A stretch of 64,000 bases of DNA from a bacterium (GTDB lineage Bacteria; UBA8248): the NCBI GenBank assembly GCA_965202625.1, contig CBDBBI010000010.1:1472001-1536000 (forward strand), written 5' to 3'. Shown here one piece after another: positions 61,848-63,659 of the stretch. The notes beneath the pieces were generated by a model. The model was not told the DNA's origin and ran no database searches. It saw only the letters and a list, made by a program, of their open reading frames with translations. Position 1 is the stretch's first letter; the number at the start of each line of letters is the position of its first letter. Made by a program: the position numbers and the translations under genes.

Positions 61848-63659
61848 TTATCCTCCTTTTTTCTTCCGTCTTTCGCCGCCACGTTTCTCCCTGGCGGCGC
61901 GGGCGATGTTCTTCGCCGCGTTCTCATCGCGATCGTGTGCCGCGCCGCATTCTGGGCAAGTCCAATGGACTTCCGACCCGAGTTCGTCGTTCGGAACACC
62001 ACAACCAGAACACGTTTTCGACGTATACGCAGGGTTGATTTTGACGACCGCTACCCCCTCGCGTTCGGCGCAATTTTTAATCGCGCCGAGGAATTCACTG
62101 AGCGCGACGTCAAAGCGCTGGCTGCGCGCCTTGTCGGGAAGCTCGTTATCGACGTCGCGCACCTCGGCGAATTGCCTCAGATCGATATCCTCCATACCAA
62201 TCGGCAGGCCGAGCGTCACCATCCTTGACGCGGCGATGCGATATATCTCCCGCCGCCAGCCCAGGGTTTTCCTGCGAAGGCCGTGCATCTCCCCGTAGAG
62301 TTTGCGGGAGCACTCCCGCCAGCGCAGCGTCTCCTCCTCCACTTCGGCAGGCAGATTCCCTCTATTTCTGCGAATATCTCCACCCAGCTTATAGGCCATC
62401 TCAAAGTTCAGGGTAACGTTCGCGGGGAGTTTCACTATCTTGCGGACCAAGCCGTTCACGAGATGCTTCTCATCCAGGGACGCCACAAACGCCTTGAGGC
62501 GAGGTTGAATGAAGCGTCCCAGCCCGGCGGCGCTGTCATCCAGATCCCCTTGAATCTTTTCGACGCGCTTCATGCGGGCAACGAGCTCTGGGGGCAACGT
62601 CACGTGCTGAAATTCCCAACCGGATGCGCTTTCCGCGGCAATCGTCGCAACGCGCAATTCTTGATCGCGCATCTTCTTGAACCCGATGTCCACGCCAAGC
62701 GCTCTGGCTGATGGATCCTCCGGCGGCGTGACAGCCGGCACTCTCACGGAGAAGTTGACCGTATACCTGAACCTGTCGCCCACCCGCCTACGCAGCAGCT
62801 TGGCGTTGTTGATCTGCGCACCCTCGGGAATGGGCCGGTGCAAATGGAGGTGAAATTCCGCATACACCTTGCTCGCCTTTCTCGCACCGCCCGCCACTTT
62901 CGCACGAAGCCGCACCACGGGAGAACCGCCCCGGAGCGCGGCGGGCGCGAGCCTGAAGCTCTCGCTGGCCTTAATTTCGCCGCGCAGGATTTCCTCGAAA
63001 GTCACTCCGTACTTCGTCTCGCCCTCGCCCGGACGCTTGAATCTATAGAAAATAAACCCCGTCCCATCGAACCTGTGAAACCGGAGACGACTCTTCGGAT
63101 TATCGAACGTCCTGCCCCGCGCCTCCTTGAAATATCGGGCGGTCTCATTCGCCGTTGGGCCATTCAGGCAGCCCGTGTTCTTCACTCGCTGGGCCGTTTG
63201 TACGCGCTCGTTAAAATCTCCATTGAGCGCCTTCTTGTCGATGCGCTTGTCCGCTTCCTTCCGATGCGGCTTGATCTCCGCCCACAGCTCCCCTCTCCTG
63301 TCTTTCAGTTTGCTGATTTCACGGTTGGCCCTCTTGATGAGCGGATGGCCGGCATCCCGCGTTTTGGCCTTCTTGCGCGCGTCGCGCTTGCGCACATACG
63401 CCTCGCGAATCTGAAGTTCCACGGCGTCAATCTTCTCGTCGACCTCACGGTATCCAGCATCGGCCGCGCGTCTCGCGTTCTTGTATTTATTCCTTGAATC
63501 CTTATCAATTTCGACGAGTTTGTTCCACAGATCGTTTCTCCGACGTAATTCATCCACCCCCGCCTGGGGAAAAGGATCGACGAACCTCGCCCTGCCTGTT
63601 TTGGAATCAATCGGCACGGCGCCGTATTGATAGACGCGGGTTGTTTCTTTTTTTTCCAT
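61848..63659 (-). CDS. cas12m: Compact type V CRISPR effector, Cas12m (V-U1)-like TnpB-derived RuvC protein, about 603 aa
   Basis: RVYQYG N-terminus, long basic helical insert, [10 protein letters not shown], HRPIP, RuvC-I GVDIG, RuvC-II GMEDID, zinc finger CSGC...CPEC, RuvC-III [8 protein letters not shown]; directly upstream of the array. Confidence 0.8.
   Translation of the reverse strand: [603 protein letters not shown]

What the first reader, a model, noticed from the sequence alone, without database searches (positions are those of the whole stretch)
61848..63659. Cas12m-like miniature effector that retains a canonical D-E-D RuvC triad and four-Cys zinc finger
Seen: ~603 aa, with LRFHRFDG.G and HRPIP motifs and a long Arg/Lys-rich helical insert typical of V-U1/Cas12m, plus GVDIG, GMEDID, CSGC/CPEC and [11 protein letters not shown], which look like an active TnpB RuvC. 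Established: characterised Cas12m proteins such as MmCas12m have a non-canonical RuvC site, do not cut DNA and silence targets by binding. Inference: this may be a nuclease-competent or ancestral branch between TnpB and binding-only Cas12m, a compact crRNA-only editor candidate. An intact triad does not prove cleavage, and similar variants may already be catalogued.
Basis: partly seen in the sequence, partly recalled or inferred. Interest (0 to 1): 0.85.

Follow-up and report, generated by a model that had tools for sequence, protein, structure and literature searches.

The report
Cas12m clade-4 CRISPR effector with array
This is an intact small CRISPR effector of the already catalogued Cas12m family, from the branch that keeps the standard nuclease residues, so it is a new member of a known kind and whether it cuts DNA remains untested.

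Summary
A 13-repeat CRISPR array follows it directly.

It is a type V-M (Cas12m, formerly V-U1) effector. Its closest solved structure is UnCas12m4a (E 1e-125, about 41% identity). A predicted fold matches Cas12m2 and GoCas12m (TM 0.72-0.74). The repeat forms a covarying pseudoknot handle, and no tracrRNA or adjacent cas1/cas2 was found.

The D324-E490-D578 triad shows no substitution in the clade. However, Cas12m clades with D-E-D were defined in 2022, and four D-E-D orthologues were reported as non-cutting binders in 2024. The one I could place, MsCas12m, falls in the sister clade. I found no published biochemistry for this clade.

The RuvC-III/zinc-finger segment resembles active ISDra2 TnpB more than it resembles other Cas12m clades. 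Nuclease competence therefore stays open, at about 0.3. My best reading is crRNA-guided DNA binding.

Side finding: the newest spacer matches, 30 of 30 bases, a cas12c gene on a strain-variant haplotig of the same assembly.

Verdict: new member of a known kind, moderate interest.

The parts
61848..63659 (-). cas12m gene (603 aa plus stop), type V-M clade 4
   Evidence: PDB UnCas12m4a E 1.1e-125. PADLOC Cas12u1 E 3.6e-71 over residues 8-591. AF2 model pLDDT 88.2. Foldseek top hits Cas12m2 and GoCas12m, TMq 0.72-0.74.
62835..62840 (-). Codons for His274-Arg275 (HRPIP motif), WED-domain pair
   Evidence: Invariant in 51 of 51 aligned homologues. Conserved in sister-clade proteins, MsCas12m (H225 R226) and a Pelobacter N-D-D protein. 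Omura 2023 describes His269/Arg270 of Cas12m2 as making base-specific contacts with the crRNA scaffold. Equivalence to that pair is inferred from the conserved HR motif, not from a direct Cas12m2 alignment.
62688..62690 (-). Codon for Asp324, RuvC-I (GVDIG)
   Evidence: Invariant in 51 of 51. Aligns with D274 of MsCas12m, the residue mutated in Bigelyte 2024.
62190..62192 (-). Codon for Glu490, RuvC-II (GMEDID)
   Evidence: Invariant in 51 of 51.
61947..62012 (-). Zinc finger / TNB segment, C550-x2-C553 ... C568-x2-C571
   Evidence: Pfam PF07282 Cas12f1-like TNB E 1.1e-20, residues 522-585. Cysteines invariant or at least 90% conserved.
61926..61928 (-). Codon for Asp578, RuvC-III ([11 protein letters not shown])
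   Evidence: At least 90% conserved in A1; the only exception is a truncated row. The motif reads [20 protein letters not shown] against [20 protein letters not shown] in ISDra2 TnpB.
61764..61847 (-). A+T-rich leader between the stop codon and the first repeat, with a promoter-like site at 61831-61804
   Evidence: Sequence. Promoter-like GTGACG-16-TAAAAT preceded by TG (consensus match only).
60932..61763 (-). CRISPR array: 13 repeats of 36 nt (12 identical; the gene-distal one, 60932-60967, degenerate at its 3' end) and 12 spacers (nine of 30 nt, two of 31, one of 32)
   Evidence: Repeat pseudoknot supported by covariation in 10 loci. No other copy of the repeat in the genome and no anti-repeat in the window.
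61698..61727 (-). Spacer 1 (leader-proximal), with an exact 30/30 match inside a cas12c gene on haplotig C6 of the same assembly
   Evidence: C6:3574-3603. cas12c identity. A contig of run X1 shows the same cas12c flanks (record 5 and loose ends).

Best explanation
This is a type V-M CRISPR-Cas locus: one effector gene (Cas12m, clade 4, the UnCas12m4a clade) and its own array. Shown: the gene is intact and single-copy. It has the Cas12m fold and family signatures and sits directly upstream of a same-strand array. The 36-nt repeat forms a conserved H-type pseudoknot ending 2 nt before the spacer. Inferred: the array is transcribed from the A+T-rich leader and cut into crRNAs (repeat handle plus spacer) without a tracrRNA. 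The crRNA-loaded monomer recognises a PAM-flanked double-stranded target and forms an R-loop. I think the most likely outcome is interference by tight binding (blocking transcription or replication), as reported for every Cas12m tested so far, with the D-E-D pocket holding the displaced non-target strand through Mg2+. New spacers must come from adaptation proteins encoded elsewhere; here the candidate is the type II-C Cas1-Cas2. Membership in Cas12m clade 4 is near certain (about 0.95). The binding-only mechanism is the weaker part.
For: Family: PDB sequence search gives UnCas12m4a 1.1e-125 over the full length, Cas12m 23vw 2.9e-30, GoCas12m 8pm4 1.5e-11 and Cas12m2 5e-9. PADLOC's best model is Cas12u1, 3.6e-71. 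The AF2 model (pLDDT 88.2, pTM 0.79) hits Cas12m2 8hhl (TMq 0.72) and GoCas12m 8pm4 (0.74), while Cas12f and TnpB reach at most 0.47. Clade: in a 56-row tree the window protein lies in a 50-row clade with P0050 (identical in sequence to UnCas12m4a). That clade is split from the sister clade by a branch with SH-aLRT 100. crRNA: arrays with a period of about 66 nt lie just downstream in 10 of 13 related loci examined. In 10 repeats the pseudoknot pairs in 90 of 90 cells, 8 of 9 pairs show compensatory changes, and 0 of 500 shuffles reach this. Its geometry matches the PmCas12m crRNA description (bioRxiv 2026.03.26.714355, passages). There is no anti-repeat and no adjacent cas1/2/4; LysR, gltB and gltD lie upstream. 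Binding-only: Bigelyte 2024 reports no dsDNA cleavage for 8 of 8 Cas12m, including 4 with D-E-D, and no cis or collateral cleavage by purified D-E-D MsCas12m. Omura 2023 reports that converting HDD to DED did not restore cleavage. Full-length self-matching spacers occur in 2 of 7 clade-4 arrays checked, one of them inside a coaE gene. Such matches are easier to tolerate without cutting. Expression hint: contigs from two RNA-library runs are 100% identical to pieces of the array and the gene. DNA carry-over is not excluded.
Against: No clade-4 protein has published biochemistry that I could find. The D-E-D orthologue I could place, MsCas12m, is in the sister clade and is only 27.7% identical over 325 residues. 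The triad shows no substitution in the clade: 56 of 61 rows read D-E-D and the other 5 are truncated. The RuvC-III/TNB segment is closer to the active nuclease ISDra2 TnpB than to other Cas12m clades. Omura 2023 explicitly suggests that clades 3 and 4 may hydrolyse DNA. The self-targets carry little weight. The PAM is unknown, and the 5' flanks differ (GGAA and ATGA). All the genomes are MAG-type assemblies. In this genome the main haplotype lacks the target, which also fits target loss under a cutting enzyme.
Confidence: 0.6

Rival explanations
1. Nuclease-competent Cas12m. Clade 4 keeps a working TnpB-type RuvC site and cuts or nicks its DNA targets, so it is a compact crRNA-only nuclease inside a family otherwise known for binding only.
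For: D324 and E490 are invariant in 51 of 51, and D578 is absent only in a truncated row. The RuvC-III/TNB motif is nearly identical to that of active ISDra2 TnpB, and the segment scores better against TnpB (1.5e-11) than against other Cas12m clades. Omura 2023 proposes this for clades 3 and 4. Altae-Tran 2023 describes gradual inactivation across V-M, which implies less-decayed branches. The main chromosome haplotype lacks the spacer-1 target, which is replaced by other genes. That is what autoimmune cutting would select for.
Against: Four D-E-D Cas12m orthologues showed no dsDNA cleavage, and MsCas12m showed no cis or trans activity. Converting HDD to DED in Cas12m2 did not restore cutting. 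Conservation of the pocket is also expected if it binds the non-target strand through Mg2+, as HDD does in Cas12m2. A perfect self-match to a coaE gene exists in another clade-4 genome. No alternative haplotig covers the Cas12m array, so the cas12c-bearing strain probably carries spacer 1 as well; this is an inference.
Confidence: 0.3
2. A transposon-borne TnpB (OMEGA nuclease) that merely lies next to an unrelated CRISPR array.
For: NCBIfam guided_TnpB scores 99.7 bits against a cut-off of 100. The C-terminal module is very TnpB-like.
Against: The TnpB model covers only residues 450-587. The full-length matches are to Cas12m. There is one copy in the genome. The flanks encode LysR and glutamate synthase upstream and the array downstream. 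Same-strand arrays with a covarying repeat follow the gene in 10 of 13 related loci.
Confidence: 0.02
3. A Cas12f-type (V-F) effector that works as a dimer with a tracrRNA.
For: PADLOC model PDLC01692, labelled Cas12f, scores 1.3e-69, nearly as well as Cas12u1.
Against: NCBIfam Cas12f2 scores 51 bits against a cut-off of 450. Foldseek TMq to Cas12f structures is at most 0.47, against 0.72-0.74 for Cas12m. There is no anti-repeat in the window. The protein has the Cas12m REC helices.
Confidence: 0.02
4. A decaying, non-functional remnant locus.
For: There are no adaptation genes at the locus. No spacer matched the phage, plasmid, viral or metagenome collections. One spacer is duplicated.
Against: The ORF is intact and all family-invariant residues are kept. 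Twelve of 13 repeats are identical. The leader-proximal spacer has a perfect match to DNA in the same sample. RNA-library contigs cover parts of the array and the gene.
Confidence: 0.05

Closest known systems
UnCas12m4a (PDB 23vu, 23vv)
   Same: Full-length homologue: E 1.1e-125 with query 6-598 aligned, 40.6% identity by BLASTP to P0050, which matches the PDB chain at 1371 bits. Same D-E-D triad, HDRDxNAA motif, CCCC finger and HR motif. Same 50-row clade.
   Different: It lies in a different sub-branch; the window protein groups with P0003-P0006 at 65-68% identity. I found no paper on UnCas12m4a, and the Foldseek library ends 2026-04-08 and lacks it. Its activity is therefore unknown to me.
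MsCas12m (Allomeiothermus silvanus plasmid pMESIL02, WP_013159911.1), a characterised D-E-D Cas12m
   Same: Cas12m family. D274-E429-D518 align with D324-E490-D578, and the HR pair and CCCC finger are kept. It is reported to bind DNA without cutting and to process pre-crRNA independently of D274.
   Different: It belongs to the sister clade with a (W/Y)DQD RuvC-III motif, is 536 aa long, and is 27.7% identical over only 325 residues.
MmCas12m2 (PDB 8hhl, 8hhm, 8hio) and GoCas12m (8pm4)
   Same: Same overall fold (TMq 0.72-0.74). crRNA-only, about 600 aa, and binding-based silencing is reported.
   Different: They have an H-D-D triad that binds a single Mg2+. Sequence identity is about 18% in the structural alignment. 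The C-terminal segment of the window protein does not match them at E<=0.001.
ISDra2 TnpB (PDB 8bf8, 8h1j)
   Same: RuvC-II to RuvC-III and zinc-finger module, with a near-identical [20 protein letters not shown] motif.
   Different: TnpB is 408 aa and lacks the Cas12m REC helices. It uses an omega-RNA and is transposon-borne. The match covers only the last 75 or so residues.

Membership tests
Cas12m / type V-M (former V-U1) | Full-length sequence homology to established Cas12m proteins | tested here: met
   PDB: UnCas12m4a 1.1e-125, Cas12m 23vw 2.9e-30, GoCas12m 1.5e-11, Cas12m2 5e-9. PADLOC Cas12u1 3.6e-71 over residues 8-591.
Cas12m / type V-M (former V-U1) | Cas12m fold: helical REC lobe, WED, RuvC with helical insertion, zinc-finger TNB | tested here: met
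   AF2 pLDDT 88.2. Foldseek ranks 1-4 are Cas12m2 and GoCas12m, TMq 0.61-0.74; the next best, Cas12f and TnpB, reach at most 0.47.
Cas12m / type V-M (former V-U1) | Stand-alone effector beside a CRISPR array, with no other cas genes at the locus and no tracrRNA | tested here: met
   The array starts 84 nt after the stop codon. Upstream genes are LysR, gltB and gltD. No off-array match to the repeat exceeds 11 nt. Altae-Tran 2023 states that V-M is linked to arrays but not to other cas genes.
Cas12m / type V-M (former V-U1) | Repeat-derived crRNA handle with two interleaved stems (pseudoknot) ending next to the spacer | tested here: met
   Stems at -27..-25 with -16..-14 and at -22..-17 with -8..-3. 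90 of 90 cells pair, 8 of 9 pairs covary, 0 of 500 shuffles reach this. PmCas12m text: -28..-26 with -17..-15 and -23..-20 with -6..-3.
Cas12m / type V-M (former V-U1) | Conserved WED His-Arg pair that reads the crRNA scaffold | tested here: met
   H274 and R275 are invariant in 51 of 51 and conserved across clades. The role is taken from Omura 2023; function was not tested here.
Cas12m / type V-M (former V-U1) | PAM-dependent dsDNA binding without target cleavage | not testable with these tools
   Needs biochemistry. Only indirect hints are available, from self-matching spacers.
Cas12m / type V-M (former V-U1) | Non-canonical RuvC triad (H-D-D, N-D-D, HEK/HQK) | tested here: not met
   The triad is D324-E490-D578. 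This does not define the family: clades 3 and 4 are listed with DED (Omura 2023) and 4 of the 8 proteins in Bigelyte 2024 have D-E-D.
Cas12m clade 4 (UnCas12m4a clade) | Groups with a named clade-4 protein, apart from other clades | tested here: met
   A 50-row clade holding the window protein and P0050 (UnCas12m4a) is separated from 6 sister-clade rows by a branch with SH-aLRT 100 (quick IQ-TREE, careful search unfinished). A FastTree of 20 rows gives the same split. I infer that 'm4' in the PDB name means clade 4.
Cas12m clade 4 (UnCas12m4a clade) | Triad of type DED, DND or NED | tested here: met
   DED in 56 of 61 clade rows. The other 5 are truncated, and none has a substitution.
TnpB (OMEGA, IS200/IS605/IS607) | Passes the curated TnpB model; transposon context and multiple copies | tested here: not met
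   guided_TnpB scores 99.7 bits against a cut-off of 100, on residues 450-587 only; the IS200 and IS607 TnpB models score about 50 bits against cut-offs of 350-425. One copy in the genome. No transposase is adjacent.
Cas12f (V-F) | Curated Cas12f model, tracrRNA, Cas12f fold | tested here: not met
   Cas12f2 scores 51 bits against a cut-off of 450. No anti-repeat. TMq at most 0.47.

The most novel reading that the evidence does not exclude
The V-M system here is aimed at another CRISPR-Cas system. Its newest spacer matches, 30 of 30 bases, the cas12c gene of a V-C island. That island exists only in a strain-variant haplotype, at a chromosomal hotspot where the main haplotype carries a different three-gene cassette and one leftover V-C repeat. 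The array has no adaptation genes of its own and shares the 36-nt repeat and 30-nt spacer geometry of the genome's type II-C array. A type II Cas1 is present in 4 of 6 clade-4 genomes checked. Clade-4 Cas12m may therefore borrow II-C Cas1-Cas2 and act to silence or exclude a rival defence island. If its TnpB-like D-E-D site is active, it could do so by cutting, which would explain why the main haplotype lacks the target.
Probability: 0.2. Interest if true: 0.6.

Novelty: new member of a known kind. Interest (0 to 1): 0.35.

Why it matters
Cas12m proteins are used as compact, naturally nuclease-free DNA binders for base and epigenome editing and for gene circuits. Whether the D-E-D clades also cut DNA is an acknowledged open point (Omura 2023). 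This protein adds a well-supported clade-4 member: an intact array, a defined pseudoknot handle, and a TnpB-grade RuvC-III module. That makes it a reasonable candidate for testing the question. It is not the first of its kind, because a relative already has solved structures. The spacer against cas12c and the co-occurrence with type II-C adaptation genes are small, testable leads on how adaptation-less V-M arrays gain spacers and what they target.

Tried and rejected
Protospacer hunt for a PAM:
- The whole array against phage records gave no match.
- Against plasmids it gave one 29-nt, 93% match at E 0.2, which I treat as chance.
- Exact scans of viral contigs with 5 single spacers and one degenerate pattern for spacers 8/9 gave 0 hits.
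- Two metagenome-contig scans gave 0 hits.
- No PAM could therefore be derived. The two self-target flanks (GGAA, ATGA) do not agree.

Rfam scan of 56000-64000: only a chance lncRNA hit at E 0.2.

Single-sequence folding of the repeat gave a different nested hairpin. I set it aside in favour of the pseudoknot supported by covariation.

Read laying:
- All runs are Logan contigs. Uncovered array bins in X1 (61449-61662), and the lack of a contig joining repeat 1, spacer 1 and repeat 2, say nothing about absence.
- Contig depths (cas12c piece 3.78, cas12m piece 3.32) are not shares of cells, and I draw no ratio from them.
- I could not test whether spacer 1 and cas12c sit in the same cell.

Wu et al. 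2022 (Mol Cell) is not held, so its clade definitions reach me only through Omura 2023.

Supplements are closed. Bigelyte's Tables S1 and S2 (134 variants; the eight tested) may include clade-4 proteins, which would bear on my statement that no clade-4 biochemistry was found.

The careful tree search did not finish in 288 s, so I used the quick tree.

Rejected readings: a TnpB transposon gene, Cas12f, and a dead locus (see rivals).
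Full report
**Observation.** The minus strand of window 61848-63659 encodes a 603-aa protein. A CRISPR array lies on the same strand, starting 84 nt after the stop codon. It has 13 repeats of 36 nt, of which 12 are identical and the gene-distal one is degenerate. It has 12 spacers of 30-32 nt. The intervening A+T-rich leader holds a promoter-like site.

**What it is.** Pfam sees only the C-terminal TNB domain, and NCBIfam's general TnpB model falls just under its cut-off, on residues 450-587 only. 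Full-length evidence points elsewhere:
- The PDB sequence search gives UnCas12m4a (23vu/23vv) at E 1.1e-125 across residues 6-598. A second Cas12m (23vw) scores 2.9e-30, GoCas12m 1.5e-11 and Cas12m2 5e-9.
- PADLOC's best model is Cas12u1 (V-U1, the former name of V-M) at 3.6e-71.
- An AlphaFold2 model built on 51 homologues (pLDDT 88.2, pTM 0.79) matches Cas12m2 and GoCas12m over its whole length (TMq 0.72-0.74). Cas12f and TnpB structures reach at most 0.47.

The gene is single-copy in a 3.09-Mb, 10-contig genome. The genes upstream are a LysR regulator and glutamate synthase. No cas1, cas2 or cas4 is adjacent, and no anti-repeat for a tracrRNA exists in the window.

**Relatives and the crRNA handle.** A search of 5.8 billion proteins returned 70 hits at E<=0.001. 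Sixteen related loci were found in species genomes, mostly MAGs labelled Alphaproteobacteria. I gave 13 of those loci to the repeat finder. Ten have an array just downstream of the gene, with a period of about 66 nt, on the same strand. L010, L013 and L014 have none, and the last two contigs end about 350 nt after the gene. I aligned the repeats of the window and nine loci; L015 was left out because it has only two partial copies. The alignment supports an H-type pseudoknot: CCC/GGG, interleaved with a 6-bp stem that ends 2 nt before the spacer. All 90 of 90 cells pair, 8 of 9 pairs show changes on both sides, and 0 of 500 shuffles reach this. Sliding the partners by one to three columns drops pairing to 27-52%. 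The geometry matches the two interleaved stems described for the PmCas12m crRNA (bioRxiv 2026.03.26.714355, passages). H274 and R275 of the HRPIP motif are invariant. I infer that they correspond to His269/Arg270 of Cas12m2, which contact the crRNA scaffold (Omura 2023, discussion).

**The triad and the clade.** In the 51-row alignment, D324 and E490 are invariant and D578 is at least 90% conserved. Reading all 70 rows, 56 of the 61 rows of this clade show D-E-D. The other five are truncated fragments, and none carries a substitution. P0050 is the UnCas12m4a sequence. In a 56-row tree the window protein and P0050 lie in one 50-row clade. That clade is separated from six rows with a WDQD motif by a branch with SH-aLRT 100. 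Fifteen partial, duplicate or doubtfully aligned rows were dropped, and the tree is a quick IQ-TREE search. The window protein forms a sub-branch with P0003-P0006.

**What is already known.**
- The discussion of Omura 2023 (PMC10442227) cites Wu 2022 for four Cas12m clades defined by RuvC triad: clade 3 DED/NED and clade 4 DED/DND/NED. It suggests that clades 3 and 4 might hydrolyse DNA. It also notes that converting HDD to DED in Cas12m2 did not restore cleavage.
- Bigelyte 2024 (PMC11013384; sections 36 and 37 and passages) tested eight orthologues, four of them with D-E-D. None cleaved dsDNA, and six bound DNA in a PAM-dependent way. Purified MsCas12m showed neither cis nor collateral activity, and D274A did not affect pre-crRNA processing.
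- Li 2024 (PMC11576732) notes D-E-D in 9 of 21 viral Cas12m.

**Is the tested D-E-D protein in this clade?** I recovered MsCas12m from its plasmid record. It has D274, E429 and D518, which confirms its identity. It groups with the WDQD/YDQD sister clade and is 27.7% identical over 325 residues. I found no paper naming Cas12m4 or reporting clade-4 biochemistry. Supplements and Wu 2022 could not be read. The last 132 residues match active ISDra2 TnpB (E 1.5e-11, with a near-identical [20 protein letters not shown] motif) better than they match the other-clade Cas12m 23vw (1.3e-7). They do not match Cas12m2 or GoCas12m at E<=0.001. This clade therefore has the least-decayed RuvC-III/TNB module among the Cas12m proteins compared here. 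That keeps the nuclease hypothesis alive, at about 0.3 in my estimate.

**Mechanism.** My committed reading, at confidence 0.6, is as follows. crRNAs are transcribed from the leader and processed without a tracrRNA. They guide a monomeric effector to PAM-flanked dsDNA. Interference is by binding, with the D-E-D pocket engaging the non-target strand. Locus anatomy, fold, repeat structure and conservation are shown. Transcription, processing, the PAM and the outcome at the target are inferred. Contigs from two RNA-library runs are identical to pieces of the array and the gene. Near-identical cas12m DNA occurs in a run labelled sponge metagenome. These are weak hints only.

**Self-targeting.** Spacer 1, next to the leader, matches contig C6 of the same assembly at 30 of 30 bases. 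The match lies inside a 1272-aa Cas12c gene (NCBIfam 1081 bits; PDB Cas12c2 1.9e-146). That gene sits beside a Cas1 and an array with 18-19-nt spacers. C6 is an alternative haplotig of C10:2027851-2034972, with flanks 99.2-99.8% identical. The main haplotype carries three other genes, two with weak BrxD-like hits, and one leftover V-C repeat. A contig of run X1 shows the same protospacer flanks. The 77 type II-C spacers and 29 V-C spacers have no self-match. Among six other clade-4 arrays, one (L022) has a spacer matching 31 of 31 bases inside a CoaE gene of its own MAG, and five have none. This bears on cutting versus binding, but it is ambiguous for the reasons given under evidence against.

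**Adaptation.** The genome has a type II-C locus with Cas9 (705 bits), cas1_NMENI (227 bits), Cas2, and 78 repeats of 36 nt with 29-30-nt spacers. This is the same geometry as the V-M array. A type II Cas1 above its cut-off is present in 3 of 5 other clade-4 genomes checked. The two genomes without any Cas1 have the smallest arrays, with 4 and 2 spacers. The sample is small and has no phylogenetic control.

**Verdict.** This is a new member of a known kind, Cas12m clade 4. Interest is moderate (0.35), because the open question it raises is already posed in print and a close relative has solved structures.

Noticed in passing
window 61698-61727 (spacer 1); L007 (contig C6) 3574-3603: The leader-proximal Cas12m spacer matches, 30 of 30 bases, the middle of a cas12c gene (L007 1560-5378) on another contig of the same assembly. 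The 5' flank on the crRNA-sense strand is GGAA.
   Followed up: partly
L007 1505-7855 versus L024 3842-7469 (C10:2029841-2033468): One chromosomal hotspot carries alternative cargo in two haplotypes. One has cas12c, cas1 and an array of about 30 repeats. The other has three genes (270, 318 and 413 aa; two with weak BrxD-like hits) and a single leftover V-C repeat at the junction.
   Followed up: partly
L022 6673-6703; L030 3265-3295 (G042:C6:20264-20294): Another clade-4 Cas12m array, in a MAG labelled Thermodesulfobacteriota, has a spacer matching 31 of 31 bases inside a dephospho-CoA kinase (CoaE) gene of the same assembly. The 5' flank is ATGA.
   Followed up: partly
L006 (C10:2375000-2394000): A type II-C locus (Cas9 1037 aa, cas1_NMENI, Cas2) has 78 repeats of 36 nt and 29-30-nt spacers. 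This is the same 66-nt period as the Cas12m array, which has no adaptation genes. A type II Cas1 is also present in 3 of 5 other clade-4 genomes checked.
   Followed up: partly
window 61367-61462 and 61168-61264: Spacers 5 and 6 are identical, a repeat-spacer duplication. Spacers 8 and 9 are diverged versions of one A+T-rich sequence, as if taken from the same site of two related elements.
   Followed up: no
window 52862-56344 (minus strand): A 1160-aa type IIG restriction-methyltransferase (PADLOC E 1.2e-269) lies about 4.6 kb beyond the end of the array, so the area may be a small defence neighbourhood.
   Followed up: no
window 59595-60208: A tandem 300-nt duplication (94% identical) covers the starts of two glycine-zipper 17-kDa-antigen-like lipoprotein genes.
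   Followed up: no
genome contigs C1-C9: All nine small contigs (10-24 kb) are alternative versions of regions of the 2.9-Mb contig C10 (84-99.8% identical blocks). The assembly therefore mixes strains. None of them covers the Cas12m locus.
   Followed up: partly
relatives G001, G007 (L025, L026, L029): Among 22 other genomes of the same genus, only two (G001 and G007) have a substantial Cas12m homologue (E 2.4e-56 and 3.1e-60, 42-43% identity), each read through one TGA; a third (G022) matches only 73 C-terminal residues at E 1.8e-7. The gene is patchily distributed, and these copies may be broken or split.
   Followed up: no
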